This document shows, in pieces, positions 42,918 through 63,510 of a DNA stretch of 64,000 nucleotides. The position numbers and the translations under genes were made by a program. The stretch's first letter is position 1, and each line of letters opens with the position of its first letter. This DNA is from a virus (Duplodnaviria > Caudoviricetes). The stretch lies in the IMG/VR virus record IMGVR_UViG_3300042542_005523; one strand, 5' to 3'. The notes under the pieces were generated by a model, which searched no databases, was not told the DNA's origin, and saw only the letters and a list, made by a program, of their open reading frames with translations.

Positions 42918-44336
42918 ATGATAGTAGATATAGAAAATAAAGGAACGTATCTGAACGTTTCTCATTTCAGTGACGAGGGCGATCTAGTTTTTTTGCACAT
43001 TCCCGTTCCTGAGGAGGAGAGATTTGTTTGGTCAAAGTGCTATCCTAATGACAGAAAAAAAGACCCAGAATGGAAAGACTGGACGGGTGCACCAGTTAAA
43101 AAGGATCCTTCTGAGAGATACGATAAGTATAGAATGGCTCAAATGCTGGAAGAGTCAGATCGCAGCATAACAGCACCACTTTGGGAGTATCAGACACCAA
43201 AGAAATACTTTCTCGATATCGAGGTTGAGATCACGGATGAGATGGCAGATGCGTTAGATACGGAGAACACAAAGAATAGAGTTTTATCAATCGGTATCGC
43301 AACAGACAAATGCAAGCTTATTGTTTTAGGTCTAGATCCTCTAACTCAAGAGCAACAGGTTTCCATTCATAATAAGCTGAATAGCTACTTCGAAAAAACC
43401 GGTGACGAGTGGAGCTTTAAATACAAGCAATTTGAAAGCGAGTATGATATGATGTATACTTTCTTTAAGGACATAGGATCGAAGATGCCATTCATTACAG
43501 GATGGAACTGGCTAGGGTATGACTGGCCGTATTTGATAAACCGTGCAAAGAAGCTGGGAATAGATCCCAAGATGATATCACCGTCACGTACTCTAATAGG
43601 AAAGAATCAGCTACCACAACACATACTAATGGTCGATTACTTGGATATCTATAAAAAATGGGACCGTGTTATAAAGATCAAGGAAAGTAATAGGTTGGAT
43701 TATGTTGCTGAAAAAGCTATAGGACTCAAGAAGATCTCATATAACGGAACTCTCCGTGATCTATATCAATCTAATTTTGAAGACTTTATCTACTATAACG
43801 CAGTCGATTGTGCTCTTGTTCATTATATAGATCAGAAGCTAAAGACCTTACAGACTTTCTTTAAGATAGCATTGGTAACAGGCGTAGAAATTAATAGAGC
43901 ACTTTCCCCAGTTTGGTCAACAGAGAGCATGATGCTCAGAAAGTTCCTAGAAAGAAAACAGGTATTTGTTAACGAGAGGAAAGAAGAGCAGGCAGTTAAA
44001 TTTGCAGGTGGATATGTTAAGGAGCCAATAGCGGGATTGCACGAATGGATAGCTTGTTATGACTTTGCCTCCCTGTACCCAAATACAATTGTTCAATGGG
44101 GTATATCCCCTGAAGTCTATAAAGGGAAGAGCATATTAACTCCAAAGGAAAGTTGGGTTAAAACATCATCTGGTGCGTACTTCGGAGGAGAAGACGAAGA
44201 GCCTATACTAAGAGGCATAGTTAGCGATCTTTATGCAAAAAGAAGAGCTACAAAGAACAAAATGTTAGCTTTACAGATCGAAATCGATAGACTTGAAAAA
44301 TTACTAAAAAAAGAATCAGAAAATTCCCCTAAATAG
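42918..44336 (+). CDS. Family B DNA polymerase, N-terminal subunit (3'-5' exonuclease + motif A; gp43A-like)
   Basis: Exo I LDIEVE, Exo II GWN...YDWPYL, Exo III YNAVD, motif A YDFASLYP; the ORF stops after the first fingers helix and lacks motifs B and C. Confidence 0.9.
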   Translation: MIVDIENKGTYLNVSHFSDEGDLVFLHIPVPEEERFVWSKCYPNDRKKDPEWKDWTGAPVKKDPSERYDKYRMAQMLEESDRSITAPLWEYQTPKKYFLDIEVEITDEMADALDTENTKNRVLSIGIATDKCKLIVLGLDPLTQEQQVSIHNKLNSYFEKTGDEWSFKYKQFESEYDMMYTFFKDIGSKMPFITGWNWLGYDWPYLINRAKKLGIDPKMISPSRTLIGKNQLPQHILMVDYLDIYKKWDRVIKIKESNRLDYVAEKAIGLKKISYNGTLRDLYQSNFEDFIYYNAVDCALVHYIDQKLKTLQTFFKIALVTGVEINRALSPVWSTESMMLRKFLERKQVFVNERKEEQAVKFAGGYVKEPIAGLHEWIACYDFASLYPNTIVQWGISPEVYKGKSILTPKESWVKTSSGAYFGGEDEEPILRGIVSDLYAKRRATKNKMLALQIEIDRLEKLLKKESENSPK

Positions 44337-44418
44337 GGGGACCAAGACTAGCCAGGGTGATATATAAAAAACCCCGGTGGGAGTCAAACCTTAATTTAAA
44401 CTATTAAAAACGAAGAAA

Positions 44419-44883
44419 ATGGCTAACACAGACAACAAATGTGCTGATCTAGAAGTTCAGGACTATTACAAAGGAACAGAGGACACACTGGGACTAATCT
44501 ACAACAAACAGAAGGAGCTTCAAGCTAGATATGGGTTCGATTTTACGGATTGGACACTAAAGCAAATTGCTGACTTTTGGATGGTAAACAAACACGCCCT
44601 AGCCGACGAACTTAATGAGATGTTCGATGCACTCGGCGGTGTTAATGATGGTATAGGCTCTGCCGCATGGAAGTATTGGAAAAAAGACAATGCTAAAGCC
44701 GCAGACATGAAAATTTCAGACCTATCAGAATCTGATAAGTTGGAGCTTTATTACGAGTGGATCGACGGTCTCCACTTTTTTATGAATTTTGGTATTTCCA
44801 TGGGAATGACAAGCGAGGATATCGTGAATCTCTATATGGCAAAGCAAAAAGAAAATCACGACCGTCAAGATAGAGGTTACTAA
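44419..44883 (+). CDS. Dimeric all-alpha dUTPase/dCTPase (T4 gp56-like)
   Basis: [19 protein letters not shown] and Y..K..EN..RQ..GY. Confidence 0.8.
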
Positions 44884-44897
44884 AAAAAATTAATTTA

Positions 44898-45887
44898 ATG
44901 GAAAATTCAATATATTCCTATGGGGAAAAGATCCTCCAGGAGAACCCGAATAGGTTCGTTATATTCCCTATAGAGCATCCGGATTTATGGGATCTTTATA
45001 AAAAGCAGCAGGCTTGCATATGGACTGCGGAAGAGATAGATCTATCCCAGGATTTAAACGACTGGAGGAATGTTCTTAATGACGATGAGAAATATTTTGT
45101 TAAGAATATCTTAGCTTTCTTCGCTGCCTCAGATGGAATAGTGAATGAAAATCTAGCGGAGAACTTCGTTAAGGAGGTTCAGTACTCCGAAGCCAAGTTC
45201 TTCTATGGGTTTCAGATCATGATGGAGAATATCCACAGCGAGACTTACTCCTTGCTGATTGATACCTATATACAGGAACAGGAAGAAAAAAATATGCTTT
45301 TTAAAGCTATTGATACAATCCCAGCTGTTAAGAAAAAAGCAGAATGGGCTCTAAAGTGGATTCAGTCCCCTCATTTCCAAGAGAGACTTATCGCTTTTGC
45401 AGCTGTAGAAGGAATCTTCTTCTCCGGTTCTTTTTGCTCTATTTTCTGGTTAAAGAAAAGAGGGTTAATGCCAGGTCTTTCATTCTCTAATGAGTTAATC
45501 TCAAGAGATGAGGGAATGCATTGCGATTTTGCTGTACATTTGCACAACAATCACATTATCAATAAAGTTTCTCCAGATAGAATAAAAGAGATTCTCACCA
45601 GCGCTTTGGAAATTGAGAAGGAATTCATAACGGAGTCACTTCCAGTTAGACTAATTGGTATGAACTCCGAATTGATGATCCAGTATCTTGAATTTGTGAC
45701 TGATAGATTATTAGTAGACCTCGGCTGCTCGAGAGTTTATAATTCTGAAAATCCATTCGATTTTATGGCTAATATAGCATTACAGGGAAAGACTAACTTT
45801 TTTGAAAAGAGGGTGGGCGAATATCAGAAAGCGGGTATTATGAATAAAAATGAAGACGACCCATTTGGGTTCGATACAGATTTCTAA
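44898..45887 (+). CDS. nrdB: Ribonucleotide reductase class Ia beta subunit
   Basis: [45 protein letters not shown] and NFFEKRV.EY. Confidence 0.96.
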
Positions 45888-45905
45888 AAATAAGTTAAAT
45901 AAAAT

Positions 45906-48422
45906 ATGCAAGTAATTAAGAGAGACGGTTCTAAAGAACCAGTGAGATTTGAGAAAGTTTCTAATAGAATTAGGAAGATGACCTATGGTCTAAATCAAGA
46001 CCTAGTTGATCCTGTGGGTATTTCACAGAAGGTAATTGCGGGGATTTATGATGGTATATCCACTCAAGAGTTGGATACGCTAGCCGCTGAGACAGCTGCC
46101 TCTATGATACCGAAACACCCTGACCATTCCATTCTAGCTTCTAGAATTGCAGTTTCCAGACTGCATAAAACAACAAAGAAGAAATTCTCAGATACCATAG
46201 ATACTCTTTATAATTACATAGATCCTGTTACTAACAAGCCAGCTGGAATGATTAGTGAAAAGACCTATCAGGTTGTAATGCAGAATAAAAACAAGCTGGA
46301 TAGCGCAATACTACACGAGAGAGATTTCGATTTTGAGTATTTTGGATTTAAGACTCTTGAGAGAAGCTACCTATTAAAAACAAATGGCGAGGTAGCAGAA
46401 ACACCGCAGCACATGTATATGCGTGTTGCCGCTGGTATATGGGGAGATGATATGAAGAACGTTATTAAAACTTACGAACTTCTTTCGAATCATATGATGA
46501 CCCACGCAACGCCCACCCTATTCAACTCTGGAACTAGAAAGCCTCAACTTTCATCCTGTTTCCTTCTAATGATGGACGATGATTCAATTCCTGGTATCTA
46601 TAAGACATTATCAGATGTTGCTGTTATCTCACAGAACGCAGGAGGTATTGGATTGGCTATTCATAACGTCAGAAGCACAGGTTCTTATATTAAAGGCACA
46701 AATGGTAATTCCAATGGTATTATACCAATGCTAAGAGTTTTCAACGAGACTGCAAGATATGTTGATCAAGGAGGCGGAAGACGTAAAGGATCCTTCGCAA
46801 TCTATATCGAGCCTTGGCATGCTGACATCGAGGATTTCTTAGATCTTAGAAAGAATACAGGTAAGGAAGAAAGAAGAGCTCGTGATCTTTTCTTGGCTCT
46901 TTGGACACCGGATATCTTCATGAAGAGAGTGAAAGAAAATGGCGAATGGTCACTATTCTCGCCATCTGACGTGGAAGGTATTTGGGAACTATATGGAGAT
47001 GCATTTGATCAAGCTTATATTGCTGCTGAAGAAGCTGGAAAGGCTAGAAAAACAGTCAAAGCAAGAGATCTCTGGGCGAAAATAATCGAGTCACAAATAG
47101 AGACAGGAACACCCTATATTCTATACAAGGACCATGCTAATAAGAAATCCAATCAGAAGAATATCGGCACAATTAAAAGCTCTAACCTATGTACCGAGAT
47201 CATGGAGGTTACTTCTAAAGAGGAACAAGCCGTTTGTAACCTTGCATCCATTCCGGTTAACAAGTTCTTAAAGTCTACCGACGCTAGAACAACTAAGTTA
47301 ATAAGAGGCAAGTGCGACGTTGATCACGATGAGCTCTATAAGGTGTCTTATCAGACAACACTTAATCTAAATCAGGTTATTGATGTCAACTATTATCCAA
47401 CAGAGGAGACTAAGAGATCCAATATGAAGCACAGACCAATCGGAATAGGCATTCAGGGATTGGCCGATCTATATGCCATCATGGGTATCGGATTCACATC
47501 GGAAGAAGCCAGAAAGATAAACTCTGATATTTTTGAGACAATATATTTTGCATCATGCACAGCTTCTAAAGATCTAGCAAAAGCCAATGGTGCATATGAA
47601 TCATTCGAGGGCTCCCCGATTAGCAAAGGAGAATTCCAGTTTAATATGTGGGGATTCAATGACGACGATCTTTCAGGAAGATGGGACTGGGGAAAATTGA
47701 GAAAGGATGTTATGAAACATGGTGTTAGAAACTCACTGCTATTAGCACCAATGCCTACAGCTTCTACAGCTCAGATCATGGGTAACAATGAGGCATTTGA
47801 GCCTTTCACATCTAATATCTACACCAGAAGAACACTATCAGGAGAATTTGTAGTTGTTAATAAGCATCTCGTGAAAGATCTCATCAATCTTGACCTTTGG
47901 GGAGAGGATATGAAGAATATGATCATAATCAATAAGGGATCTATACAGAACATTCCTAGCATACCGGATGATATCAAGGAGGTCTATAAAACGGTGTGGG
48001 AGATTAAGCAAAAAGATCTATTGGATATGTCAGCAGACAGAGGAAGATTTATTTGCCAATCTCAGTCTATGAACTTGTTCATCGAGGGTGTGAATGCTGC
48101 TAAATTGACAGCTGCTCACTTCCATAGTTGGGAGATAGGCTTAAAGACTGGTATGTACTATTTAAGAACTAAATCAGCAGCTGATGCTCTTTCAGGGCTA
48201 GGAGTTGATCTATCTAAATATAAGACACAAAAGACAGAAGAGGCTAAACCAGTTCAAGCTGAGCCGGCTAAACAAATTGAGGTTACTAAAGTGGCAACTT
48301 CTCTGCCTCCGGAGATCACAGCCAATTCACAGGAGTTAGCTGACCTGGCTGCTAAATTAACTTCTGACATAGTCTGTAGTCTTGATAGCGGGCCAGACGA
48401 GTGTATTGCTTGCGGATCTTAA
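45906..48422 (+). CDS. nrdA: Ribonucleotide reductase class Ia alpha subunit with ATP cone
   Basis: VIKRDG ATP cone, ATPTLFN, QLSSCF, SNLCTEI, CNLAS, APMPTAS and C-terminal CSL...C.ACGS; no intein seen. Confidence 0.97.
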   Translation: MQVIKRDGSKEPVRFEKVSNRIRKMTYGLNQDLVDPVGISQKVIAGIYDGISTQELDTLAAETAASMIPKHPDHSILASRIAVSRLHKTTKKKFSDTIDTLYNYIDPVTNKPAGMISEKTYQVVMQNKNKLDSAILHERDFDFEYFGFKTLERSYLLKTNGEVAETPQHMYMRVAAGIWGDDMKNVIKTYELLSNHMMTHATPTLFNSGTRKPQLSSCFLLMMDDDSIPGIYKTLSDVAVISQNAGGIGLAIHNVRSTGSYIKGTNGNSNGIIPMLRVFNETARYVDQGGGRRKGSFAIYIEPWHADIEDFLDLRKNTGKEERRARDLFLALWTPDIFMKRVKENGEWSLFSPSDVEGIWELYGDAFDQAYIAAEEAGKARKTVKARDLWAKIIESQIETGTPYILYKDHANKKSNQKNIGTIKSSNLCTEIMEVTSKEEQAVCNLASIPVNKFLKSTDARTTKLIRGKCDVDHDELYKVSYQTTLNLNQVIDVNYYPTEETKRSNMKHRPIGIGIQGLADLYAIMGIGFTSEEARKINSDIFETIYFASCTASKDLAKANGAYESFEGSPISKGEFQFNMWGFNDDDLSGRWDWGKLRKDVMKHGVRNSLLLAPMPTASTAQIMGNNEAFEPFTSNIYTRRTLSGEFVVVNKHLVKDLINLDLWGEDMKNMIIINKGSIQNIPSIPDDIKEVYKTVWEIKQKDLLDMSADRGRFICQSQSMNLFIEGVNAAKLTAAHFHSWEIGLKTGMYYLRTKSAADALSGLGVDLSKYKTQKTEEAKPVQAEPAKQIEVTKVATSLPPEITANSQELADLAAKLTSDIVCSLDSGPDECIACGS

Positions 48423-48431
48423 TTAAGAATA

Positions 48432-48439
48432 GATAAATA
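48432..48439 (+). promoter_or_regulatory. Putative late promoter box GATAAATA
   Basis: Immediately upstream of adk. Confidence 0.45.
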
Positions 48440-48443
48440 GGAT

Positions 48444-49085
48444 ATGAATTCTAGCATTAAAAGATTTTCCGATTTTGTAAACGAAAGGGAGCTTCCTGAT
48501 AAGCAGGGAAAAATAATAGTTCTACTTGGCCCTCCTGGATCAGGGAAAGGTACTCTAGCAAAGGGACTAATAAAGGACTATGATTTCCAGCACATCTCAA
48601 CAGGTGATCTAATTAGAAACTCAGACGATAAGGAGCTGAAGAAAATCATAGCAAATGGAAAGATGATTCCAGATGATAAGATGCTTGAGATACTAAAGGA
48701 AAAAGTTAAGGAACTTGATTTAGAAAAAAATATAGCATTTGACGGATTCCCTAGGAATATAGAGCAATCTAAGATGCTAGATAAAATGCTAGGTAAGCTA
48801 GGTCTTGGTTTAAATTATGCTATTTTCTTAGACCTTCCAAGAGAAGAAGCAATCGATAGATTAAAGAAAAGAGCTAAAGAAGAGGGAAGGAAGGACGATG
48901 CTAGTTTTGAAACTATTAACAAGAGATTTGACGAGTATCTTGAAAAGACTTTACCTCTGATAGAGCTTTACACTAAAAACAGGAAAGTCAAGAGAATAGA
49001 CTCGTCTGAAGGGAAGGATGCGGTTTTGTCTAATGTTGTTGATGCTTTGGGCTTGAAAAAGTCCAAGGAGCAAAATAAAGGATAA
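48444..49085 (+). CDS. adk: Adenylate kinase (short LID) with N-terminal CTS-like extension
   Basis: GPPGSGKGT, HISTGDLIR, FDGFPR and R.DD; extra N-terminus MNSSIKRFSDFVNE. Confidence 0.92.
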   Translation: MNSSIKRFSDFVNERELPDKQGKIIVLLGPPGSGKGTLAKGLIKDYDFQHISTGDLIRNSDDKELKKIIANGKMIPDDKMLEILKEKVKELDLEKNIAFDGFPRNIEQSKMLDKMLGKLGLGLNYAIFLDLPREEAIDRLKKRAKEEGRKDDASFETINKRFDEYLEKTLPLIELYTKNRKVKRIDSSEGKDAVLSNVVDALGLKKSKEQNKG

Positions 49086-49720
49086 TGCGTTCTGAAGCAG
49101 TCGACCAATTCGTAAATTCCTTAAAAAAGAGGATTAAAGAGGAGAAGCTTAAACAGAGTGTCGAAAGGACATTCTTAGAGGAAGCCGTGAATCTTCTGGT
49201 CTCAGTTTTCTCTTCTGGAACTGGATCTTTTGTAAAGGGTGTTAAGAATTATAAATCTAAGGACTTTAGCTCTTATATTGATGTTGAATCCACAGACGAA
49301 GGAAAACTTAAAACCATAATAAAGGAGTCAATTCGGGGCATAGATTCTAAAATGAAATGGCTGGATCTAGGCGATCTAGTTATAATAAGCTGCAATCTCA
49401 AAAGTCTAGAACTCATATCGGGTTCTCTAGAAAATCCTGTACTGGTAGAAGTTTATCCTTCTCCTTCTGGAAAAAATACCAGAATTCGTGTTATGTTAGG
49501 TAACAGGGACAAACACTGCGGTAAGGTTCTAAGAAAGAACATGAAGTGGGTAACCTGGATCTGGAACGGTAAATTACACAAGATAGTACTAGATAGAGTT
49601 GATCCATTTGCTACAGAGATAATCTTTTCGGGTGAAATAGATGGGCAAACATACGGGATAGCTACAGAATTAGATTATTCAGGTCTTAATTATGAAATCT
49701 TATCAGTAAATAAACTATAA
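49085..49720 (+). CDS. Hypothetical protein
   Basis: 211-aa ORF, translationally coupled to adk. Confidence 0.55.
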   Translation: MRSEAVDQFVNSLKKRIKEEKLKQSVERTFLEEAVNLLVSVFSSGTGSFVKGVKNYKSKDFSSYIDVESTDEGKLKTIIKESIRGIDSKMKWLDLGDLVIISCNLKSLELISGSLENPVLVEVYPSPSGKNTRIRVMLGNRDKHCGKVLRKNMKWVTWIWNGKLHKIVLDRVDPFATEIIFSGEIDGQTYGIATELDYSGLNYEILSVNKL

Positions 49721-49740
49721 CGATAACAAAATTTTTCAAA

Positions 49741-51024
49741 ATGCCAACAAGTAGAAATAAAAAGAAAGGTGGTAATAAATCAAATACACCTAAACAAAAT
49801 TTTAAACAGGTGCAACAAAATTCAACAATGAAAGCTGCCCCTATATCAGGGTTACAGGAGATTAAAAAACAAACGTCTACCCTGTGTTTGGTTATGATCG
49901 TAAAAGACGAGGCCGATAACATCAGGGAGTGTTTATCAAAAGTAGCACCTTATATCAATTACTGGGTGATTGTAGACACTGGATCCACTGATAATACCAT
50001 CGAGGTAATCAGAGAAACAATGGCAGAGTTTGAGATAGAAGGAGAACTTCACGAGAGACCTTGGGTTAACTTTGAGGTTAACAGAACTGAAAGTCTTGAG
50101 TTGGCTAAGGATAAGTGTGACTATAGATGGATTATCGATGCGGATGATACGTTTATGGTTGAACAATTCGGATTTAATCCATTTGCACACATCGATAATT
50201 CGATGGACACTTATCAGATCACATACAGACTTAATGCTCTTCAATACCATAGAGCTCAGATAGTTAGATCTAATCAGCCTTGGGTTTATAAGGGTGTACT
50301 TCACGAGTATCTTCATTGCGATTTACCAAATCTAAAAAGCGCTATTCTTCCAGGATGCTACGTTAAAGCAGACATTAGCCCCTTGAAAAGAGCTAGCTCT
50401 CTAGAGGAAAAGTATGCTAAGGATGCTGAGATTCTAGAAAAAGCGTTAGTGGACGAGCCAAACAATACCAGATACATGTTCTATCTGGCTCAAAGTTACA
50501 GGGATTCAGATCAGCTGGAAAAGTCCCTAGAAGCTTATAAGAAAAGAGCAGAAGCCGGGGAATGGGAGGAGGAAGTTTACTATTCTCTCTATATGATAGC
50601 TAAATTAATGGAGAAGATGGCATTCCCCGCAACGGAGGTTGTCAATGCTTATTCTAAAGCATGGGAGTATAGACCGCAAAGATTGGAAGCTGTATTTCAC
50701 GTTATGAGAAAGCTCAGAGAAGAGAACAGGTACGTTTTATCTTTCACTTATGGAGACCTAGCTATTAAAACACCAGGGACTAGCGACATTCTGTTCGTAG
50801 AGCCTGAAATCTGGCAATGGAGAATGGTTGATGAGTATTCTATAGCAGCTTTCTATATAGGTCACCCGGAAATAGCTTTTGAGAAGACCTCTCAGATAGT
50901 TGGATCCCCGATCTTTTCAACACTACACCCGCAAGAACAGGATAGATTAAAGAGAAATCTTGAGTTCTATAAGAAGGGAAATGAAAATGTTAAATCTGGC
51001 AAGGCCAAATTAACAAGAGTATAA
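49741..51024 (+). CDS. Glycosyltransferase family 2 with C-terminal TPRs
   Basis: LCLVMIVKDE, VDTGSTD, W.NF...R..SL, DADD and GVLHE; TPR-like RYMFYLAQSY.D and EEVYYS. Confidence 0.85.
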   Translation: MPTSRNKKKGGNKSNTPKQNFKQVQQNSTMKAAPISGLQEIKKQTSTLCLVMIVKDEADNIRECLSKVAPYINYWVIVDTGSTDNTIEVIRETMAEFEIEGELHERPWVNFEVNRTESLELAKDKCDYRWIIDADDTFMVEQFGFNPFAHIDNSMDTYQITYRLNALQYHRAQIVRSNQPWVYKGVLHEYLHCDLPNLKSAILPGCYVKADISPLKRASSLEEKYAKDAEILEKALVDEPNNTRYMFYLAQSYRDSDQLEKSLEAYKKRAEAGEWEEEVYYSLYMIAKLMEKMAFPATEVVNAYSKAWEYRPQRLEAVFHVMRKLREENRYVLSFTYGDLAIKTPGTSDILFVEPEIWQWRMVDEYSIAAFYIGHPEIAFEKTSQIVGSPIFSTLHPQEQDRLKRNLEFYKKGNENVKSGKAKLTRV

Positions 51025-51040
51025 TTTCTAAAATTTGTTT

Positions 51041-51048
51041 GATATATA
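51041..51048 (+). promoter_or_regulatory. Putative late promoter box GATATATA
   Basis: About 25 nt upstream of 51074. Confidence 0.55.
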
Positions 51049-55220: not shown

Positions 55221-55223
55221 TAA

Positions 55224-55514
55224 ATGAAAGAAGAAGACATAAAAGAATGGATGATGTGGAAAGCGATGGAGGAATTTAATTCCAATGTTTCCGAAAATGG
55301 AGGTGTCGTGAACGGTATTAAGTACACTCAGGATCTGGATCTAGAGTTACAAATCAGAATAGATTATCTAAAAGACGAGTTTGGTCAGGAAGAAACTGAG
55401 GTAGAGATTTCAAAATATAAGAACCCAGACGGTAGCTTCATAGAGGGGTTTCACTCCAATGAAGAAGTTTGGGACTCTATCTTAACGAATCTTAAGAAAT
55501 CCAAAAATATATAA
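55224..55514 (+). CDS. Small acidic hypothetical protein
   Basis: ORF in operon. Confidence 0.5.
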   Translation: MKEEDIKEWMMWKAMEEFNSNVSENGGVVNGIKYTQDLDLELQIRIDYLKDEFGQEETEVEISKYKNPDGSFIEGFHSNEEVWDSILTNLKKSKNI

Positions 55515-55518
55515 TCTC

Positions 55519-55848
55519 ATGTCTAAAAGCTTCTACCCCTCTAAGGGATTCGGTTCGGAAGGACCTCATCCTCAATTTAACATACTCAGAAAGCATATCG
55601 ATAGAGCGGTTCAGGATCTTTTTTTGAGTGCTCTTAGAAATCCAACAGAAGAGTTGAACTATGTGTTCAGGTCGGATGACCAGATTGATTCCTTTACTCA
55701 AAGAATGATTAAATACTGGGAATCACATGAGGATTATGAGATCTGTGCAGAAATACAAAAGCTGGGTAGAAATTTCAAAAAGGAGTGGAAAGAAAGATCT
55801 ACACCGGATTCTTTCGAGCCTAAGAAAATTATAGACATATTCAAGTAA
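55519..55848 (+). CDS. Hypothetical protein
   Basis: ORF in operon. Confidence 0.5.
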   Translation: MSKSFYPSKGFGSEGPHPQFNILRKHIDRAVQDLFLSALRNPTEELNYVFRSDDQIDSFTQRMIKYWESHEDYEICAEIQKLGRNFKKEWKERSTPDSFEPKKIIDIFK

Positions 55849-55854
55849 AAAATT

Positions 55855-56907
55855 ATGGCAAAAGATTACTACTCAATACTAGGTATTGCCAGGAACGCAT
55901 CGTCCGAAGATATTAAGAAAGCTTATAGAAAGCTAGCTATTAAATATCACCCGGATAAAAATAACGGAGACAAAGAGTCGGAAAGAAAATTCAGAGAGGT
56001 GAGTGAGGCATACGAAACACTCTCGGATCAGGATAAAAAAAGAAAATATGATAATCCAGATCCATTCAGGAGCCAAGGGTGGAATCCGTTTCAGGGAACT
56101 GATCCATTTCAGGGAAACGATTTCTATAGCTTTTTTGGAGGGAGAAACGGTGGCTTCTCACAAGATCCTTTGATTAATAAGGGTAGAAATGTTAACGTAT
56201 CAATGGAAGTCACACTTGATGAAATATTAAGTGGTGCTACTAAGAGAGTAGCTATATGGAGAAAAGAAGGATGTTCGTATTGCTCGGGAACAGGATCTGC
56301 TTCAGGTAAGCTTGAAACGTGTAACGAGTGCCACGGATCGGGTAAGATAAGACAGACCGTAAATACTGCATTCGGTACGGTTGCCCATGAATCTTTTTGT
56401 AATACGTGTCAGGGTTCTGGATCTAAAAGTACTGACCCGTGTAGGCATTGCAACGGATCGGGTACAGAAAGAATATTGGACGAGATAGACATAGCTATGC
56501 CAAGAGGCAGCGTTGGAGGTATGAGTTTTGTAGTTTCTGGGAAGGGTGACCATGCAAAATCACCCTGCAATCCGGGAGATCTTGTTGTGAATGTGAATGA
56601 GATAGCGCATCGATATTTTAAGAGGGATGGTATAAATCTAGTATGCGAGGAATCTATAAGCTATAAGGAAGCTTGCTTAGGAACAGATATAAATATACCA
56701 AACCTGAAAGGTGGTGAATATAAGATCAAGGTTCCGGGAGGAACGAGTCCTGGTAAAATATTTAGACTACAGGGTAAAGGTATTCCGGAATTTAATGGAT
56801 TTATAAACGGGGATATCCTCGTTAAGGTTAGCATTAAAGTACCTCAGTTCATATCTGACGAACAGAGAATAAAGTTGGAAGAATTGGATAAATCACTCTC
56901 TATATGA
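55855..56907 (+). CDS. dnaJ: DnaJ co-chaperone (type I, with zinc finger)
   Basis: J-domain with HPD, G/F region, four CxxCxGxG repeats and C-terminal domain (GDL.V, G.GIP). Confidence 0.95.
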   Translation: MAKDYYSILGIARNASSEDIKKAYRKLAIKYHPDKNNGDKESERKFREVSEAYETLSDQDKKRKYDNPDPFRSQGWNPFQGTDPFQGNDFYSFFGGRNGGFSQDPLINKGRNVNVSMEVTLDEILSGATKRVAIWRKEGCSYCSGTGSASGKLETCNECHGSGKIRQTVNTAFGTVAHESFCNTCQGSGSKSTDPCRHCNGSGTERILDEIDIAMPRGSVGGMSFVVSGKGDHAKSPCNPGDLVVNVNEIAHRYFKRDGINLVCEESISYKEACLGTDINIPNLKGGEYKIKVPGGTSPGKIFRLQGKGIPEFNGFINGDILVKVSIKVPQFISDEQRIKLEELDKSLSI

Positions 56908-57269
56908 TGGACCTTATTCTTTTTCTACTCGTCTCATTTTCATTTTGCTACTTGGTGGTAACCTCCTATATAGTAGCTCCTGTTAGAAATTACTTTCTAG
57001 TAAAATATCCATATATTGGGAAACTACTTAGCTGCATACAGTGCTTTGGATTTTGGAGCGGCTTTCTATTTTCATTGCTTTCTTATTTTGGGTTAATCTC
57101 TATCAATCAAGATAATATTAGATACTCAGATATCCCTATATTGAGTTTTTTCCTCTGCGGACTGCTAGCAAGTCTTTTCTCTGTACTGGCGAATTCCCTT
57201 ATTTTTTATCTAAACTCTAGAGATATATACATTATAGAAAAAGATAAAAAAAAGAACCAAAATGAGTAA
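56904..57269 (+). CDS. Small membrane protein, DUF1360-like
   Basis: Three hydrophobic segments with P.R...GKLLSC.QC.GFW.G. Confidence 0.55.
   Translation: MMDLILFLLVSFSFCYLVVTSYIVAPVRNYFLVKYPYIGKLLSCIQCFGFWSGFLFSLLSYFGLISINQDNIRYSDIPILSFFLCGLLASLFSVLANSLIFYLNSRDIYIIEKDKKKNQNE
57222..57229 (+). promoter_or_regulatory. Putative late promoter box GATATATA
   Basis: About 32 nt upstream of 57262, inside the upstream ORF. Confidence 0.45.
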
Positions 57270-58773
57270 AGTAAAAAGCTGGACAGATTTTAATAAATTC
57301 TCATTCAGTACTATCGCTATAAACGAGAGTGATCCAGCACAAGTACTTAGCGACGAGAATGCTAAAGCTGCTGAACAAATAAGGAAGTATCTAAAAGAGA
57401 AAGGGGTAAGCGTAGATGGAATCACAATCGACTTCTCTTCCGACGGCGTCGAAGCAGCCCCAAAGGAAGATCCTAATAAAACTGTATCCTATTCTACAGG
57501 TGGAGTTACAGGTGGAGATAGAATTAGGGGTGGAGATAGAATTGGACACACAGGTGCTCACAGCTCAAGTTCGAACGATAAATTAGGAAATTTAGCTGAT
57601 ACCCTTGCTGATGCTGCTGAGTATGCAGGAAGAGGACTTGGAAACACTATCAAATCAGATTCGACGACGTTCGGTAGTGCGCTTAGTGCTGATGGTAGAA
57701 AACAGATTAAAGATTATTTCTTCGGTACCGGTGGAGAAGTGGAAACAATAGGTGGTGGCGTTTCAGGATTTGCAGCTTTTTCAGGTTCTTCTTTAAATGG
57801 TGGTATAGATGCTTCCAACCAGGAGTCATATCAAAACAAAAAAACAGAGGTTCTCAAGACTGAAAATCCCGATCTTAGTAAAGCCACGAGCAATTTAACT
57901 CAACCAAACTACTATAATATAGGTAAACCCTCTTTTGTTGGATCAAAAGAATATAAGGATATACTTGATTCCATAGGAAAAAATAGAAAATCCGCACTTA
58001 GATTTTTGGAGGATATAGGAGTTGATACTGAACTAATAAGGGAAAGAGAAAATCACTTAGTTGCTCTTAGATCCTCTTTAGATATAAAGAATTCTTATCC
58101 GAACGATTTTACTGACTTTTTTATATTGTTCAAAATTGATGGTGATATTGACACATTTCTGGGAAGTACAACACCATCACCAGCATTTAGAGTTAAAGAG
58201 TGGTACGACTATCTCATTAAAATAGGATTTACAAAACTAATAGTTCAACAGGGATCATATATTTTAGACCCGGGTGTTTATAAATTTGTGATAAAAGATA
58301 CTGATACGAAAAGTAAATATTTCGGTTCATCTATTTTACAGCAAGACGGAACCTCTAATTTTCATAAATATGGATTGATGGGGAGTGCAGCTGAGGCTAA
58401 AAGGACCAACACATTCTCTCCTGGTAGTCTTGAAAAAGGAAGAATTGATCTTTGTATAACTCCTGCTCTACCTGAAGGAAGAAATGCAGACGGATTAGAT
58501 GCTACGACATCGGGAGATCAGGTTATAAAGAACGCGAAATCATTTGATAAGATACTAGCAGCAGCTAAATCTAATCCTTCAGCAACTCTTCCTTATATTC
58601 TAGCAGAAAATAACGGGGTTAAATCTAAAAGAGAGGAGAGAAGGGAGAGAAGAGAGGAAAGGAAAGAAGAAAAGAAGGGCACAGAGAAAGCTGAAGTAAA
58701 TGCAGAAGATGCAAAAGTTAACGAATCTTTCAGCCAAAATGGTATGAAATACCTTAAAAAATTCGGCGAATAA
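57262..58773 (+). CDS. Hypothetical 503-aa protein with CTS-like motifs at both termini
   Basis: Starts MSKVKSWTDF...INES and ends VNES...MKYLKKFGE; Gly-rich internal region. Confidence 0.6.
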   Translation: MSKVKSWTDFNKFSFSTIAINESDPAQVLSDENAKAAEQIRKYLKEKGVSVDGITIDFSSDGVEAAPKEDPNKTVSYSTGGVTGGDRIRGGDRIGHTGAHSSSSNDKLGNLADTLADAAEYAGRGLGNTIKSDSTTFGSALSADGRKQIKDYFFGTGGEVETIGGGVSGFAAFSGSSLNGGIDASNQESYQNKKTEVLKTENPDLSKATSNLTQPNYYNIGKPSFVGSKEYKDILDSIGKNRKSALRFLEDIGVDTELIRERENHLVALRSSLDIKNSYPNDFTDFFILFKIDGDIDTFLGSTTPSPAFRVKEWYDYLIKIGFTKLIVQQGSYILDPGVYKFVIKDTDTKSKYFGSSILQQDGTSNFHKYGLMGSAAEAKRTNTFSPGSLEKGRIDLCITPALPEGRNADGLDATTSGDQVIKNAKSFDKILAAAKSNPSATLPYILAENNGVKSKREERRERREERKEEKKGTEKAEVNAEDAKVNESFSQNGMKYLKKFGE

Positions 58774-58817
58774 GAAACTTAGCTTCATTTTTTCAATAGA
58801 ACTTCTAAACATAGAAG

Positions 58818-59324
58818 TTGAATAAATTAAGCATCACAGATCAGATCAATACCCAATATAGGGATTATGCCCTATATGTTATACAGAGCAGGGGTATTCC
58901 AAATTTCTATGATTTCCTAACTCCGGTACAGAGATTAATCTTAGAAAACTCCCCATCCAGATACAATAAAACCGTTGGACTAGTAGGGGAGGTTATTAAA
59001 ACCGGATTTTATCATCATGGAGATTGCCTTGATGGCGACACCCTCATAAATCTAGCAGACGGAACATCTATAAAGATTAAAGAGTGGTATAAAAACAATC
59101 CAGAGGCTGACCTATTGGTAAGATCTTTCGATACAGATTCCGGTGAAGAAGTTATAGGATATGCGCATAGCCCTAGAATAGGCCAACTAAATAATGAATA
59201 TCTAGAGATAGAATTAGAATCGGGCGAAATAATAAGATGCACAGATAATCATCCATTCTTAGTGGATGGTGAATGGATTAAAGCCGGTGATTTGGTGAAA
59301 GGGCACGACATAACAAATTTATGA
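58818..59324 (+). CDS. Topoisomerase II medium subunit (gp52/GyrA-like), N-terminal fragment fused to split intein N-half
   Basis: Y.DYALYVI..R.IP...D.L.PVQR and YHHGD extein, then CLDGDT (intein block A, Cys at 59025) and IRCTDNHPF (block B); stop at 59324. Confidence 0.9.
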   Translation: MNKLSITDQINTQYRDYALYVIQSRGIPNFYDFLTPVQRLILENSPSRYNKTVGLVGEVIKTGFYHHGDCLDGDTLINLADGTSIKIKEWYKNNPEADLLVRSFDTDSGEEVIGYAHSPRIGQLNNEYLEIELESGEIIRCTDNHPFLVDGEWIKAGDLVKGHDITNL

Positions 59325-59342
59325 TTTTTTCATACCATCATT

Positions 59343-59350
59343 GATATATA
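59343..59350 (+). promoter_or_regulatory. Putative late promoter box GATATATA for the HNH gene
   Basis: About 13 nt upstream of 59364. Confidence 0.5.
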
Positions 59351-59363
59351 AAATAAAAAATCC

Positions 59364-60242
59364 ATGATGATAGAGAAATATTGCGAAAGGTGTGGCATTA
59401 AATACCAAACAGATAAAAAATCATTTTTTAAGTATTGTAGTACCTTATGTAGGTCTAGAGATAAATTCATAGCTATCAAGGATAAGCATGGAAATGAATT
59501 TAACGTGTGGAAAAATAATTTCCAAAAATACCCTGATTTTTATCTTAGTCTGAGTAAGATCAATAATACAAGAAATAAATGTTTTATATGTGGCATTGAA
59601 TATAATTCTTTTAGAATGTGCTGTAGCAAAGAATGCTCAAGCATAATGAAAAAGCAAACTACTTTTAAAACTACAGGGGCTGAACATAATCTATCATCTG
59701 GTTCCAAATCTAGATCCAATATGGAAGAAAACCTCATCCAATTATACGGGGTCAGTAACGTATATCAAAGGCATGATGTTAAAGAAAAATTAAAAAATAC
59801 TTGGTATTTGAAATATGGATATGACAACCCATCCAAATCTAAAAATGTAAAAGAGAAGAAAAGAAAGGAAGCAGAGAAGAATGGATTTTGGATTCCAAGG
59901 GAAGAATGGTCTGAAAGAAAAATCTATGAAGCTAATGTTCACGAGATTACTTGGTCGCAAATGAGAAATTTTGCAAAACTTAAATTCGGAAGTGATATAT
60001 GGGATAGAATAAAGGAATCAAGGGGGTTACCTCAGACAGAATGGCTAACAGTCGATCATAGATATTCTAGAAACCAGGGATTTTTGGAAAAGATGGATCC
60101 TAGTATAATTGGGCACATCTGCAATATAGATATATTAACATTCAGCGAAAACCGAAATAAATGGTCGACGTCTAGTATAACAATCGGTGAATTAAAAGCA
60201 GAAATAGAAGAATTCAATAAAAATATAAGAGATGCGGATTAA
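59364..60242 (+). mobile_element. Free-standing HNH-type homing endonuclease between the split intein halves
   Basis: Two CxxC...CSxxC Zn modules, YGVSNV/YGYDNPS repeats and C-terminal DHRYS...GF.....IGHICN...L...EN..K; low GC. Confidence 0.75.
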
Positions 60243-61539
60243 ATCAATAAAAAAAATTATCTTGGATTCACCCAAGCCTTTTTATGATATAACAGTAGAA
60301 AAGTACTCCAATTTTTCAATTGGTAAATCAAACATAATATCCCATAATTCTTCTTTGGCCGGAGCAATATCAAAACTAGCAAGGCCATTCGGTTGCTCCT
60401 TCCAGATATTAGAAGGTGATGGATTTTTTGGATCGCCTGTTAACCCTTCGCCATCCGCTCCTAGGTACACCTCTGTTAGAATTAACAATAAGATAAAAGA
60501 GCTAATAGAAAAGCACTCCGATCTTAACGAGGCAAACGAAGAGGGATCTCACGATTGGATTCACGTGGAAATGCCTATAGGTCTTATGACCCATATGGTT
60601 GGTATTGCAGTTGGCTATAGAACTAATATACTACCCAGAAAAATGGAGGATGTTATAGAGTACCTCTCGGGTCAGCCTAAATTATTGAAGCCGCATTTCC
60701 GAGATTTTTCAGGCAAAGTAACCAAGTATAATAATGAGGAGAACACATGGTTAATAGAGTCCGGTCTTGAGGTCAATGCCTCTAAGAAATCAATGAGAAT
60801 ATTCGATCTTCCGCCAGCTATCAGATACGATAGCTTTATGGTGAGGCTTGAATCAAAGCTTGATCTATTAGGATGTGAATACCGCATAGAAAATAAATCT
60901 CAGAGTAAGTGTGATCTTACAATTACATTCCGTGGAATTGACGACGATAAGTTCAAATACGTTTCCGATAATATTTCAAGGATTACAAAGATTATAATCA
61001 AGGAAGATATTGTTTTAGTCAAAGACGGGGGAGTAGCTGAATATGGATCAATAAAGGAATACCTGGATCAATTTAAGGTACATCTGGAAGAGGTAAGATT
61101 GAAAAGACTGAAAAAAGATGCATTGAATCTTTTGTCTGATCTTGAGTTTCTAGAAGCAAAATTAAAGTTTCTAAATTTCATGATACAGAAGAAAAGAAGT
61201 AATTCAGAGATCTCCCAGTTCTTGTCAGTGTACAATTCAAGGATAACATCAAGATTACAGAGAATAGAAGCAGTTAAACTAAGCGTAGAAAGCATAGAAG
61301 AGACTAAGAGCGAGATCGAGCGTATTAAGAAGGCAACAACAGAGAATAAGAAAGCTGTTAAAGAACAGGAGACAAAATACAAAGAGGCAAAGAAGCTTTT
61401 AAAAAAGCTATCGAAACCACTGGTTAGGACTAACTCACTATTCGAGCCCACCGAGATTGACGGGATAGAAATATTCCAGCCGGAAGAGGAATCAGAAGAA
61501 AAAGAGGGGGAAGATCAAGAATTAGACGAAAACATTTAA
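60232..61539 (+). CDS. Split intein C-half fused to the topoisomerase II gp52/GyrA-like C-terminal fragment
   Basis: MRIKSIKK...FYDITV...NF.I...IISHN (39 aa), then Ser+1 at 60349; extein has G.FGS....SAPRYT (catalytic Tyr) and GIAVGY.TNI.P. Confidence 0.9.
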   Translation: MRIKSIKKIILDSPKPFYDITVEKYSNFSIGKSNIISHNSSLAGAISKLARPFGCSFQILEGDGFFGSPVNPSPSAPRYTSVRINNKIKELIEKHSDLNEANEEGSHDWIHVEMPIGLMTHMVGIAVGYRTNILPRKMEDVIEYLSGQPKLLKPHFRDFSGKVTKYNNEENTWLIESGLEVNASKKSMRIFDLPPAIRYDSFMVRLESKLDLLGCEYRIENKSQSKCDLTITFRGIDDDKFKYVSDNISRITKIIIKEDIVLVKDGGVAEYGSIKEYLDQFKVHLEEVRLKRLKKDALNLLSDLEFLEAKLKFLNFMIQKKRSNSEISQFLSVYNSRITSRLQRIEAVKLSVESIEETKSEIERIKKATTENKKAVKEQETKYKEAKKLLKKLSKPLVRTNSLFEPTEIDGIEIFQPEEESEEKEGEDQELDENI

Positions 61540-61570
61540 ACTAAACATCTAAAACTATAAAAGGAAAAAA

Positions 61571-62353
61571 ATGATAAAACTAAGAATCACCAGTACCAAC
61601 AATCTGATTAATTTTCTCAAGCGATTGAAACCCGTAGATAGAAGCGTGCTTCTAGAACTAACGTCCGATAACATTTTCTGTAAGGTTCACACACCGGATA
61701 AGGCTGTTATGAAATTTGCTTCTCTAGCTTTCGGTGAAGTTTTCGAAGGTGAGATAACATGGAAAGACATTCTTAAGGGTAAGACTCAAGAAGAAAGAGT
61801 TAAAATTGGATTGATTGAGGTTGGTAAATTTATGGATTGCTTCAAGCATTTCAGACCAGAAGAGGATGTTTTCATGGAGATATCAACTGAGGTGTTAGAG
61901 GGAAACCTTGTAGCTACAGATGTGCTTCTGACCTCTAAATCTCTACACATTAGAGTTAAATGTGCTGATCTATCTCTTCTCTCCTATGTTGATGATAATA
62001 TTTTGGATATGGTTCACTCTAAGGAAGACACTATTGCCCAATTTAAGATTTACCAATCTGATTTTTCATCAATAGTTTCGTTATGTGGATTGGAAAGTAA
62101 TTCGGAAGAACTTCTTTATTTTGACGTGTCCAGCAAGGAGGTTAGAGCTAAAGGTGAGTCATTCAATTACAAAATCAGCATCTCTCCAGAAGAGATAAGA
62201 GTTGATAGCGACAATGCTACTTCGCAGATCTACAAAACCCAACTTTCCTACATGGAATCTGAAACTTGTGATTGTTATGTACATGAAAACAGATTGGTTT
62301 TATTCTCGCAGCAGAGTAACACGTCTATTGCAATTGGTATTGTAATTAAATAA
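61571..62353 (+). CDS. Probable DNA polymerase sliding clamp (gp45/PCNA-like)
   Basis: 260 aa with two repeated beta-alpha-beta halves, immediately upstream of the polymerase C-half; assigned from size, pattern and context only. Confidence 0.5.
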   Translation: MIKLRITSTNNLINFLKRLKPVDRSVLLELTSDNIFCKVHTPDKAVMKFASLAFGEVFEGEITWKDILKGKTQEERVKIGLIEVGKFMDCFKHFRPEEDVFMEISTEVLEGNLVATDVLLTSKSLHIRVKCADLSLLSYVDDNILDMVHSKEDTIAQFKIYQSDFSSIVSLCGLESNSEELLYFDVSSKEVRAKGESFNYKISISPEEIRVDSDNATSQIYKTQLSYMESETCDCYVHENRLVLFSQQSNTSIAIGIVIK

Positions 62354-62361
62354 AAAAACAA

Positions 62362-63510
62362 ATGACAGAGACGGAAATCGAAGAGATAAAGAATAAGATA
62401 ACGGAGCTTACGTCTTTAAAGAATGAGTTAAAGAATGAGGAGCAGGCTGTTAAGCTAACGATGAATTCCATCTACGGCGCGGTAGGAAATTCTTTCTTTG
62501 TTTGCTTTAATACCGATGTTGCAGAGGCAGTTACCCTACAGGGTCAGGATATGATCAAGTTCTCTGAAAAGATTGTAAATAGATATTTTCAGGAACATTG
62601 GCATCTAGATACTGAGCTGCACGAGCAATTGGGGCTATCCCAAGTTAAGAGAGTCCACAAGCCACTGGTTATCTACTCTGACACTGACTCTAATTATGTT
62701 GCTTTTGAGGAAGTTGTAAACTCATGTGACTGGAAAGGAGATCCTAAAGATCTTATCCTACAGATAAACGAGAAAAGATTTAAGGGATATCTAAAAAACT
62801 GCTTCGAGATTTATTCAAAGAAATGGGGTACTGAAAATAAACAGGATTTCGAGTTGGAGACACTTGCTATAAATGGTATATTCCTAGGTAAGAAAAAGTA
62901 TGTTACTAATCTTGTGTACGAGGACGGAGTCCACATGGAGCCTTTATCCAGATTAAAGATAACTGGTGTTGAAATGATCAAAGGCGGAACACCCCCATTC
63001 GTTAGAGAGAAGCTAAGCTATCTTACAAAATTCATCTTCTCCAAAGGTAAAAAGTTCAGTATCAAAGAATTTGTACAAGAGCTTAAATCCATTAAAAAAG
63101 ATTTTAAAGCTCAGGAGTCCCAGAATATCTCTGCAGCTATACAAATCAACAACTACGAGAAGTTTGTTTTGAATGACGTCTCAGCGCTAGAAGTTGGAAA
63201 GGGATGTCCCATCCATGTTAGAGCAAGTGCATATCACAATTATCTACTGAATAATTCAAAATTTAAGGACAAGTATGCTATGATTAGAAGTTCAGATAAA
63301 GTTAATTTCTTCTTTGTTAAAACCAAATCCGCAGCTGAAAATAATGTATTTGCATTTGTTCAAGGTAATTTCCCATACGAATTTGCACCGCAGATAGATT
63401 ACGATCAGCAATTCACCAAGACTATTTTGGACCCAATCAACAGGTTCATTGAAGCTATGGGCCACAACCCTATAAGTCCAAATCTATTCATGATAAATCC
63501 TCTTTTTTAA
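62362..63510 (+). CDS. Family B DNA polymerase, C-terminal subunit (motifs B, C, thumb; gp43B-like)
   Basis: Motif B KLTMNSIYG, motif C YSDTDS, KKKY and C-terminal hydrophobic clamp-binding-like tail (INPLF). Confidence 0.9.
   Translation: MTETEIEEIKNKITELTSLKNELKNEEQAVKLTMNSIYGAVGNSFFVCFNTDVAEAVTLQGQDMIKFSEKIVNRYFQEHWHLDTELHEQLGLSQVKRVHKPLVIYSDTDSNYVAFEEVVNSCDWKGDPKDLILQINEKRFKGYLKNCFEIYSKKWGTENKQDFELETLAINGIFLGKKKYVTNLVYEDGVHMEPLSRLKITGVEMIKGGTPPFVREKLSYLTKFIFSKGKKFSIKEFVQELKSIKKDFKAQESQNISAAIQINNYEKFVLNDVSALEVGKGCPIHVRASAYHNYLLNNSKFKDKYAMIRSSDKVNFFFVKTKSAAENNVFAFVQGNFPYEFAPQIDYDQQFTKTILDPINRFIEAMGHNPISPNLFMINPLF

What the first reader, a model, noticed from the sequence alone, without database searches (positions are those of the whole stretch)
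42918..63510. DNA polymerase B split without an intein into two genes about 18 kb apart, broken in the fingers coiled coil
Seen: 42918..44336 has the exonuclease and motif A and ends LYAKRRATKNKMLALQIEIDRLEKLL. ORF 62362..63510 begins MTETEIEEIKNKITELTSLKNELKNEEQAVKLTMNSIYG (motif B) and carries motif C. Neither end has intein motifs. Established: some T4-like phages have gp43A/gp43B split in the fingers domain. Inference: the heptad extensions zip the halves together non-covalently. The wide separation, with the C-half co-transcribed with the putative clamp, would allow independent regulation or subunit exchange.
Basis: partly seen in the sequence, partly recalled or inferred. Interest (0 to 1): 0.68.

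Follow-up and report, generated by a model that had tools for sequence, protein, structure and literature searches.

The report
Two-gene DNA polymerase in giant phage
This lake-water giant phage encodes its only T4-type DNA polymerase as two separate proteins, cut at the tip of the "fingers", from genes 18 kb apart; the split is real and almost certainly functional, but it is a known kind and is the usual state in a large group of related phages.

Summary
ORF 42918..44336 (472 aa) carries the exonuclease motifs, motif A and the first finger helix of a family-B polymerase. ORF 62362..63510 (382 aa) carries the second finger helix with motif B, motif C, the thumb and a conserved C-terminal tail. 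The two abut on a full-length profile (positions 109-495 and 489-840). Neither end has Hint/intein signal, and no intron RNA was found.

The arrangement is not a remnant. More than 45 related contigs share the gene order. Four complete relatives (319-434 kb) each have exactly one N-half and one C-half, and no intact polB.

The same break occurs in phage PAU (2.4 kb apart), MA9V-2 (3.6 kb) and huge phages LR7565xx (up to about 280 kb, opposite strands). Of 144 scored relatives among the 150 nearest cluster representatives, 113 are N-half-only and 22 are fused. The fused forms are scattered on the tree.

A complex prediction passed its controls. It places the main interface in the shared palm sheet as well as the finger helices, so "heptad extensions" is only partly right.

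The gene before the C-half folds like a PCNA clamp.

Fingertip splits are known in T4-like phages and engineered Pfu, so this is a new member of a known kind. This scan had already noted the N-half in an overlapping window and split polymerases in other phages.

The parts
42918..44336 (+). polB N-half (472 aa): N-terminal domain, 3'-5' exonuclease (ExoI-III), palm motif A and the first finger helix. Ends with a TAG stop.
   Evidence: phrog_2062 (N-half-only family) 9.6e-74; phrog_262 positions 109-495.
44208..44336 (+). Coding stretch for finger helix 1 (residues about 431-472). It includes the RB69 R482/K486-equivalent KRRATKNK and an a/d-type hydrophobic pattern. The last 5-9 residues vary among relatives.
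   Evidence: (contacts 431-466 at i/i+3/i+4 spacing).
62362..63510 (+). polB C-half (382 aa): finger helix 2 with motif B (K31 = RB69 K560), palm motif C, thumb, and the invariant C-terminal tail ISPNLFMINPLF (a likely clamp-binding peptide).
   Evidence: phrog_1918 (C-half-only family) 2.2e-64.
61571..62353 (+). 260-aa PCNA/gp45-like sliding clamp gene. Its stop lies 8 nt before the C-half start. It sits directly before the C-half in seven loci of five distinct contigs and about 0.9 kb before it in three.
   Evidence: AF2 model, mean pLDDT 66.6. Foldseek PDB top 50 are all PCNA or 9-1-1 clamps, E about 1e-9. Atlas feature lead. Weak BLASTP match to PAU gp109, E 0.001. Synteny.
44419..61539 (+). 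Intervening conserved module of 18 ORFs: MazG-like NTP pyrophosphohydrolase, RNR small and large subunits, dTMP-kinase-like, glycosyltransferase, M28-like peptidase, topoisomerase II large subunit, UvdE, DnaJ, fractured topoisomerase II medium subunit, and unknowns.
   Evidence: The same order occurs in related contigs.
51620..51648 (+). Strongest terminator-like hairpin between the halves (13-bp stem followed by a T run). It probably divides the block into at least two transcription units.
   Evidence: a consensus scan only.

Best explanation
The two ORFs are the two subunits of the phage's replicative T4-type family-B DNA polymerase. Each is translated on its own. They assemble non-covalently into one enzyme.

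How the pieces fit:
- The motif A strand of the N-half completes the palm sheet with the motif C hairpin of the C-half.
- The two amphipathic finger helices pack as the normal antiparallel finger hairpin, which simply lacks its tip loop.
- The N-half supplies proofreading, the motif A catalytic Asp, and the R/K residues of finger helix 1.
- The C-half supplies motif B, the motif C Asp residues, the thumb and the clamp-binding tail. Its gene sits directly behind the clamp gene.

Shown: the sequence anatomy, conservation, absence of an intact copy in complete relatives, and absence of intein or intron signal. Inferred: that the halves assemble and are active. This rests on a prediction plus published precedents.

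Likely origin: a cut at the fingertip, a recurrent landing site for free-standing homing-endonuclease genes, after which the gap grew or the halves were moved apart.
For: Anatomy and complementarity of the halves.

No other polB piece in the window: fused relatives P0009 and P0029 hit only these two ORFs.

Conservation:
- N-half 61-78% and C-half 72-74% identical across more than 45 IMG/VR contigs with the same gene order.
- Finger helices and the C-terminal tail are conserved.

Complete relatives G002-G005 (319-434 kb, CheckV 100%; two have terminal repeats) each have one N-half and one C-half 14-17 kb apart. The only other match is a weak exonuclease-only ORF in G003.

The same break in other phages:
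- PAU gp105/gp110, MA9V-2, Lak-B6 and LR756500.
- LR756501, LR756502, LR756504 and LR745206.

Complex prediction: ipSAE 0.80 against a best control of 0.53. That mark was reached by 51 of 78 solved complexes and 2 of 108 mismatched pairs. The runs share at least 94% of contacts and the partner pLDDT is at least 86. Because single-chain PolB structures are solved, this pass may come from memory.

Published precedents:
- Engineered fingertip-split Pfu forms an active 1:1 complex, and natural fingertip splits exist in T4-like phages (PMC3061061).
- PhiKZ gp82+gp50 is an active 1:1 complex (PMC13648687).

Origin lead: L068 has N-half, then a homing endonuclease (phrog_3339, 9e-104), then the C-half. 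Its sister cluster P0084 is fused.
Against: - There is no biochemical or expression evidence for this phage.
- The window's own complete genome is not held, so absence of another polymerase rests on relatives. The nearest relative, G006, is only 66% complete.
- The complex score is a model's confidence and could reflect memory of single-chain PolB structures.
- One control scored 0.53.
Confidence: 0.87

Rival explanations
1. The two ORFs are decaying remnants of a disrupted polB, and replication depends on an intact polymerase elsewhere in the genome or on the host.
For: The window's own full genome could not be searched.
Against: - Both halves keep every catalytic motif.
- They are conserved at 61-78% identity over many contigs with intact frames.
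- Complete relatives hold no other polB.
- 113 of 144 related cluster representatives end at the same point.
Confidence: 0.03
2. The halves are joined into one chain after transcription or translation, by a split intein, trans-splicing intron halves or translational bypass.
For: - Inteins are active in this lineage. The window's topoisomerase II medium subunit is fractured by a split intein.
- A 98-99% identical relative has an intein in motif C of the C-half.
Against: - Pfam found no Hint or intein signal at either polB end, while it did find the topoisomerase split intein in the same window.
- Only 9 residues follow finger helix 1, and about 5 residues precede helix 2. That is too short for intein halves or stumps.
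- No Rfam intron was found.
- Eighteen kb of conserved genes lie between the halves.
Confidence: 0.02
3. The split is adaptive rather than a neutral scar. An open fingertip or separately timed subunits change substrate range (for example modified dNTPs) or let assembly of the polymerase be regulated.
For: - The split state is the majority in a large clade.
- A fingertip split plus Q484R let Pfu accept bulky gamma-phosphate-modified nucleotides (PMC3061061).
- A strong terminator-like hairpin lies between the halves.
- Nucleotide-metabolism and glycosyltransferase genes lie in the gap.
Against: - Fused and split forms alternate among close relatives, which fits near-neutral change.
- There is a single copy of each half, so nothing to exchange.
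- No expression-timing data exist.
Confidence: 0.08

Closest known systems
Bicistronic gp43 (gp43A/gp43B) of T4-related phages 133, 44RR, 31, 25 and 65 (Petrov et al., as described in PMC3061061)
   Same: A family-B replicase cut in the fingertip between the two finger helices. There are two separately translated ORFs and no intein. The fingertip is viewed as a hotspot for DNA insertions.
   Different: - There the halves are 2 bp to 3 kb apart. Here they are 18,025 bp apart with 19 genes between, and in relatives up to hundreds of kb apart on opposite strands.
- This is a different PolB lineage, about 25-32% identical to T4-type cyanophage gp43.
- Here the split is the majority state of the clade.
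Sphingomonas phage PAU gp105 / gp110 (NC_019521), with gp109 as clamp (PMC4889955)
   Same: Same break point. The N-half is followed by a MazG-like gene (phrog_173). A clamp gene lies directly before the C-half.
   Different: The gap is only 2.4 kb with four genes, and the N-half is about 29% identical. The split itself is annotated in the record but was not discussed in the papers I could search.
PhiKZ DNAP-N (gp82) + DNAP-C (gp50) (PMC13648687)
   Same: A jumbo-phage PolB encoded by two distant genes. It forms a stable, active 1:1 complex resembling RB69 polymerase.
   Different: The PhiKZ break lies in a large palm insertion after motif A, not in the fingertip. PhiKZ has extra domains and a monomeric clamp-derived partner (Rhc). 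Here a PCNA-like clamp gene is present.
Engineered fingertip-split Pfu polymerase (PMC3061061)
   Same: A cut in the fingers near the tip. The halves co-purify 1:1 and have wild-type activity.
   Different: It is an engineered archaeal enzyme, made from one bicistronic construct or refolded fragments.
Fractured genes with split inteins and a free-standing homing endonuclease (Dassa et al. 2009, from my own knowledge)
   Same: An essential replication gene is encoded in two pieces. The window's own topoisomerase II medium subunit (58818..61539) shows exactly this layout.
   Different: The polB halves have no intein parts, so they cannot be spliced into one chain.

Membership tests
Family-B DNA polymerase, T4/RB69 gp43 type | Exonuclease motifs ExoI (DxE), ExoII (NxxxFD-like) and ExoIII (YxxxD) | tested here: met
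   FLDIEV 98-103, NWLGYD 197-202 and YYNAVD 292-297 in the N-half. The last two align to the RB69 motifs. PF03104 scores 39.4 bits against a cutoff of 23.
Family-B DNA polymerase, T4/RB69 gp43 type | Polymerase motifs A (DxxSLYPS), B (KxxxNSxYG) and C (YGDTDS) | tested here: met
   Motif A is in the N-half at 381-389. Motifs B (31-39) and C (105-110) are in the C-half. PF00136 is above its cutoff in both halves.
Fingertip-split (bicistronic) gp43-type polymerase | Break lies between the two finger helices, after the RB69 K486 equivalent and before the K560 equivalent | tested here: met
   The N-half aligns to T4 gp43 up to residue 502 and the C-half from residue 534. C-half K31 equals RB69 K560.
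Fingertip-split (bicistronic) gp43-type polymerase | Two independent ORFs with their own stop and start, and no intein or intron | tested here: met
   TAG stop at 44334-44336 and ATG at 62362 after an in-frame TAA. No Hint hit and no Rfam family.
Fingertip-split (bicistronic) gp43-type polymerase | Halves associate and reconstitute polymerase activity | not testable with these tools
   Only a prediction is available: ipSAE 0.80 against a best control of 0.53. That mark was reached by 51 of 78 solved complexes and 2 of 108 mismatched pairs. The pass may be from memory of single-chain PolB structures.
Split-intein fractured gene | N-intein (about 100 aa, Hint blocks A/B) after the N-extein, and C-intein ending in HN before C/S/T | tested here: not met
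   Pfam found no Hint or Intein_splicing hit in P0001 or P0002. The same search found both intein parts in the window's topoisomerase pieces. The polB tails are only about 5-9 residues beyond the helices.
PhiKZ-type split PolB (DNAP-N/DNAP-C) | Break inside a large palm-insertion domain after motif A | tested here: not met
   The break is in the fingertip. The two halves total 854 aa, about the size of unsplit T4-type enzymes, so there is no large insertion (PMC13648687).
PCNA/gp45-type sliding clamp (ORF 61571..62353) | Two-domain clamp fold | tested here: met
   The Foldseek PDB top 50 are all PCNA or 9-1-1 clamps (E about 1e-9, TM 0.4-0.5) on a model of moderate confidence, pLDDT 66.6.
PCNA/gp45-type sliding clamp (ORF 61571..62353) | Sequence-family match (PF00705, PF02747 or PF09116) | tested here: not met
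   No Pfam, PHROG or PDB sequence hit. There is only an Atlas feature lead and a weak match to PAU gp109, E 0.001.

The most novel reading that the evidence does not exclude
In this very large clade of giant phages the two-subunit polymerase is the norm, and the split is kept because it is useful. An open fingertip might admit modified nucleotides, or separately expressed halves might gate replisome assembly. Under this reading the split is not just a tolerated scar of homing-endonuclease invasion. The gap between the halves would then be an ancient locus with conserved flanks (MazG on one side, clamp on the other) that has grown from 2.4 kb in PAU to 18 kb here.
Probability: 0.1. Interest if true: 0.6.

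Novelty: new member of a known kind. Interest (0 to 1): 0.3.

Why it matters
- **Annotation:** in giant freshwater and Bacteroidota-type phages, two "partial" PolB genes far apart should be read as one two-subunit replicase, not as pseudogenes.
- **Assembly:** halves that lie up to hundreds of kb apart on opposite strands in relatives show that assembly needs no coupled translation.
- **Evolution:** the repeated switching between fused and split forms, together with one case of a homing endonuclease sitting exactly in the break, gives a natural series for studying how essential enzymes become multi-subunit.
- **Polymerase engineering:** the many natural split points and conserved finger helices are a ready catalogue of tolerated fingertip cuts.

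Tried and rejected
- **Own genome search:** The nearest held record, G001, is a 39-kb fragment without polB.
- **Near-identical DNA in GenBank phages:** megablast found nothing.
- **Intein stump idea** (a lead from an earlier finding on another phage): rejected. There is no Hint signal and the tails are too short.
- **RNA-level joining:** no Rfam family anywhere in the window.
- **Expression:**
  - Three metatranscriptome runs hold small shares of the stretch, kept as contigs. Pieces at 90-99% likeness lie over the N-half 3' end, and in one run over the start of the C-half.
  - The tool warns that DNA can be present in such libraries and that contigs cannot show transcripts. I draw no conclusion from this.
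- **Joined DNA form:** no contig joining 44336 to 62362 was seen in the four runs laid. This is absence in contigs only and proves nothing.
- **Promoters:** sigma-70-type matches were fewer than in shuffles (41 against 58), so they say nothing about promoters.
- **L071:** the ORF after the split N-half P0023 is not a C-half.
- **Literature:** searches for a paper that discusses the PAU/Lak/huge-phage fingertip split found none. Petrov's original papers are not in the library, so I cite them through PMC3061061.
Full report
**1. What is there**

The window holds two + strand ORFs, 42918..44336 (472 aa, P0001) and 62362..63510 (382 aa, P0002).

- Pfam places the family-B exonuclease domain and the first part of the polymerase domain (profile 16-140) in the first ORF. 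It places the rest of the polymerase domain (profile 133-451) in the second ORF. All hits are above the curated cut-offs.
- On the PHROG profile of full-length T4-type polymerases (phrog_262, 856 positions) the ORFs cover 109-495 and 489-840, so they abut.
- PHROGs also has separate families for N-half-only (phrog_2062) and C-half-only (phrog_1918) proteins, and both are hit strongly. Such halves are therefore already common in phage databases.
- ExoI-III and motif A lie in the N-half. Motifs B and C lie in the C-half.
- Against solved structures, the N-half aligns to T4 gp43 up to residue 502 and the C-half from residue 534. C-half K31 is RB69 K560.
- The cut therefore lies in the fingertip, between the two finger helices.
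- The N-half ends at a TAG stop. The C-half ATG follows an in-frame TAA by four codons.
- Neither half has a Hint or intein hit, and Rfam finds nothing in the window.
- Contigs from a lake-water DNA run not flagged as a possible source of this DNA cover both junctions almost without difference.

**2. What lies between and around**

The 18,025-bp gap holds 19 + strand ORFs:
- a MazG-like NTP pyrophosphohydrolase;
- ribonucleotide reductase small and large subunits;
- a dTMP-kinase-like protein and a glycosyltransferase;
- an M28-like peptidase;
- the topoisomerase II large subunit, UvdE and DnaJ;
- a topoisomerase II medium subunit that is itself fractured by a split intein with a free-standing homing endonuclease;
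- a 260-aa ORF that ends 8 nt before the C-half.

That 260-aa ORF has no sequence-family hit. Its AlphaFold model (pLDDT 66.6) matches only PCNA and 9-1-1 clamps in the top 50 PDB hits. It also resembles PAU gp109 weakly, the protein that Kazlauskas et al. identified as PAU's gp45-like clamp "next to the DNA polymerase" (PMC4889955).

Upstream of the N-half lie a gp32-like SSB, a primase and a DnaB-type helicase. Both halves thus sit in one co-directional replication block. One strong terminator-like hairpin lies at 51620-51648.

**3. Is it a remnant?**

No.

- IMG/VR holds 49 contigs with the N-half (42 at 61-98% identity, seven at 36-38%) and 11 with the C-half.
- The more-than-45 contigs at 61% identity or above share the order polB_N, MazG, RNR..., topoisomerase II, clamp, polB_C.
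- Four relatives rated 100% complete (319-434 kb; two with terminal repeats) each hold exactly one N-half and one C-half. These lie 14-17 kb apart on one strand. No intact polB is present. The only other match is a weak exonuclease-only ORF in one genome.
- Fused relatives used as queries hit only these two ORFs in the window.
- The window's own full assembly is not held, so absence elsewhere in this very genome is inferred.

**4. How widespread, and how did it arise?**

The same break is found across a range of distances:

| Phage | Arrangement of the halves |
|---|---|
| Sphingomonas phage PAU (gp105, gp110) | 2.4 kb apart |
| Chryseobacterium phage MA9V-2 | 3.6 kb apart |
| Lak-B6 | a C-half piece about 10 kb upstream of the N-half |
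| LR756500 | about 10-13 kb apart; the C-half is itself in two pieces at motif C |
| LR745206, LR756501, LR756502, LR756504 | about 100-280 kb apart, opposite strands |
| Flavobacterium phage MaF61 | fused |

- A search of 1.84 billion cluster representatives gave 243 clusters at E of 1e-30 or better.
- Of the best 150, 144 were long enough to place on a tree. Of these, 113 are N-half-only proteins that end in the same helix, 22 are fused and 9 were left unclassified.
- The fused proteins have real, uninterrupted fingertip loops.
- On a tree of the N-half region the fused forms are scattered, needing at least 14 changes on well-supported branches of a quick tree.
- An AU test rejects a single fused clade, with a log-likelihood difference of 1493 and p = 9e-75.
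- One split cluster (P0085) has a homing endonuclease (phrog_3339, 9e-104) exactly between its halves, while its sister cluster is fused.
- PAU shares both flanks with the window: a MazG-like gene after the N-half and the clamp before the C-half.
- The fused relative P0009 sits behind the topoisomerase genes and a 247-aa ORF, that is, at the C-half position.

My reading, which is inference: the fingertip is cut repeatedly, at least sometimes by free-standing endonuclease genes. Once the enzyme works as two chains, the gap can grow or the halves can be moved apart.

**5. How it most likely works**

- The complex prediction gave ipSAE 0.80 against a best control of 0.53. That mark was reached by 51 of 78 solved complexes and 2 of 108 mismatched pairs. 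The runs agree in at least 94% of contacts, and the partner pLDDT is at least 86.
- Single-chain PolB structures are solved, so this pass may be from memory. It shows likeness to those structures, not binding.
- The lowest-error contacts join the motif A strand (N-half 377-381) to C-half 111-115 and 165-169 in the palm.
- N-half residues 431-466 touch C-half residues 1-30 with helical periodicity.
- Both finger helices are conserved and amphipathic, while the extreme tips vary.
- The C-terminal tail ISPNLFMINxLF is invariant in 12 relatives. It resembles the clamp-binding tail of RB69 gp43; that comparison rests on my own knowledge.
- Published work shows that such cuts are tolerated. Fingertip-split Pfu is a fully active 1:1 complex, and natural fingertip splits exist in T4-like phages (PMC3061061). 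PhiKZ's two distant PolB genes give an active 1:1 complex (PMC13648687).

**6. Comparison and novelty**

- This is the same kind of split as the bicistronic gp43 of T4-related phages, found in another PolB lineage and with far greater gene separation.
- PAU's two polymerase genes have been annotated for years.
- I found no paper that discusses the split in the PAU/Lak/huge-phage group.
- Earlier notes of this scan had already flagged this N-half in an overlapping window, and split polymerases in other phages.
- I rate it a new member of a known kind, of modest interest.
- The clade-wide survey (majority split, repeated switching, distances up to hundreds of kb) is the part that adds something.

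Noticed in passing
window 58818..59324, 59364..60242, 60232..61539: The topoisomerase II medium subunit (GyrA-like, PF00521/phrog_551) is fractured. Piece 1 carries the N-extein plus the N part of an intein. Piece 2 carries the C part of the intein plus the C-extein. A free-standing homing endonuclease gene (phrog_3339, DUF7487) lies between them. The 98% relative L058 has one contiguous 465-aa gene. A lake-water DNA contig joins 59024 to 60361 with 12 other letters between, which is an intein-free allele.
   Followed up: partly
L058:10001-11677 (IMGVR_UViG_3300032319_000936): In a 98-99% identical relative the polB C-half carries a 176-aa intein (PF14890, 3e-10) inside motif C (YSDTD|S). The window lacks it. 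Identity to the window is 85% upstream of the site and 99% downstream of it.
   Followed up: partly
L001, L002 and L058 (near-identical relatives): These relatives carry extra inserts that are absent from the window. The RNR large subunit has about 1.46 kb after residue 288. The homologue of ORF 39304 has 414 bp. The topoisomerase II large subunit has about 700 bp. They are probably further inteins or introns that come and go between strains.
   Followed up: no
LR756500.1 248813-252414 and MK250025.1 (Lak-B6) 519346-519627: In LR756500 the C-half is itself in two pieces about 2.2 kb apart, broken at motif C. In Lak-B6 only a short C-half piece (profile 475-569) was detected, about 10 kb upstream of the N-half on the same strand.
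   Followed up: no
L068 (Logan SRR26926517 contig), 1366-5732: The layout is polB N-half, then a 524-aa homing endonuclease (phrog_3339, 9e-104), then the polB C-half. The sister cluster on the tree (P0084) is a fused 906-aa polymerase.
   Followed up: partly
window 61571..62353 and 63478..63507: A PCNA-like clamp gene lies directly before the C-half in seven loci of five distinct contigs, and about 0.9 kb before it in three. The polymerase C-terminal tail ISPNLFMINxLF is invariant in 12 relatives. This is probably the clamp-binding peptide.
   Followed up: partly
window 55855..56907, 54306..55220, 39304..41187: The phage encodes a full three-domain DnaJ, a UvdE UV endonuclease, and a 627-aa protein of a conserved family of unknown function (phrog_22485, E 1e-255).
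   Followed up: no
window 62340..62364 and 44400..44421: The leaders before the C-half and MazG start codons are A-rich and lack a Shine-Dalgarno-like purine run. With the Bacteroidota hosts of cultured relatives (Prevotella, Chryseobacterium, Flavobacterium), this hints at a Bacteroidota-type host.
   Followed up: no
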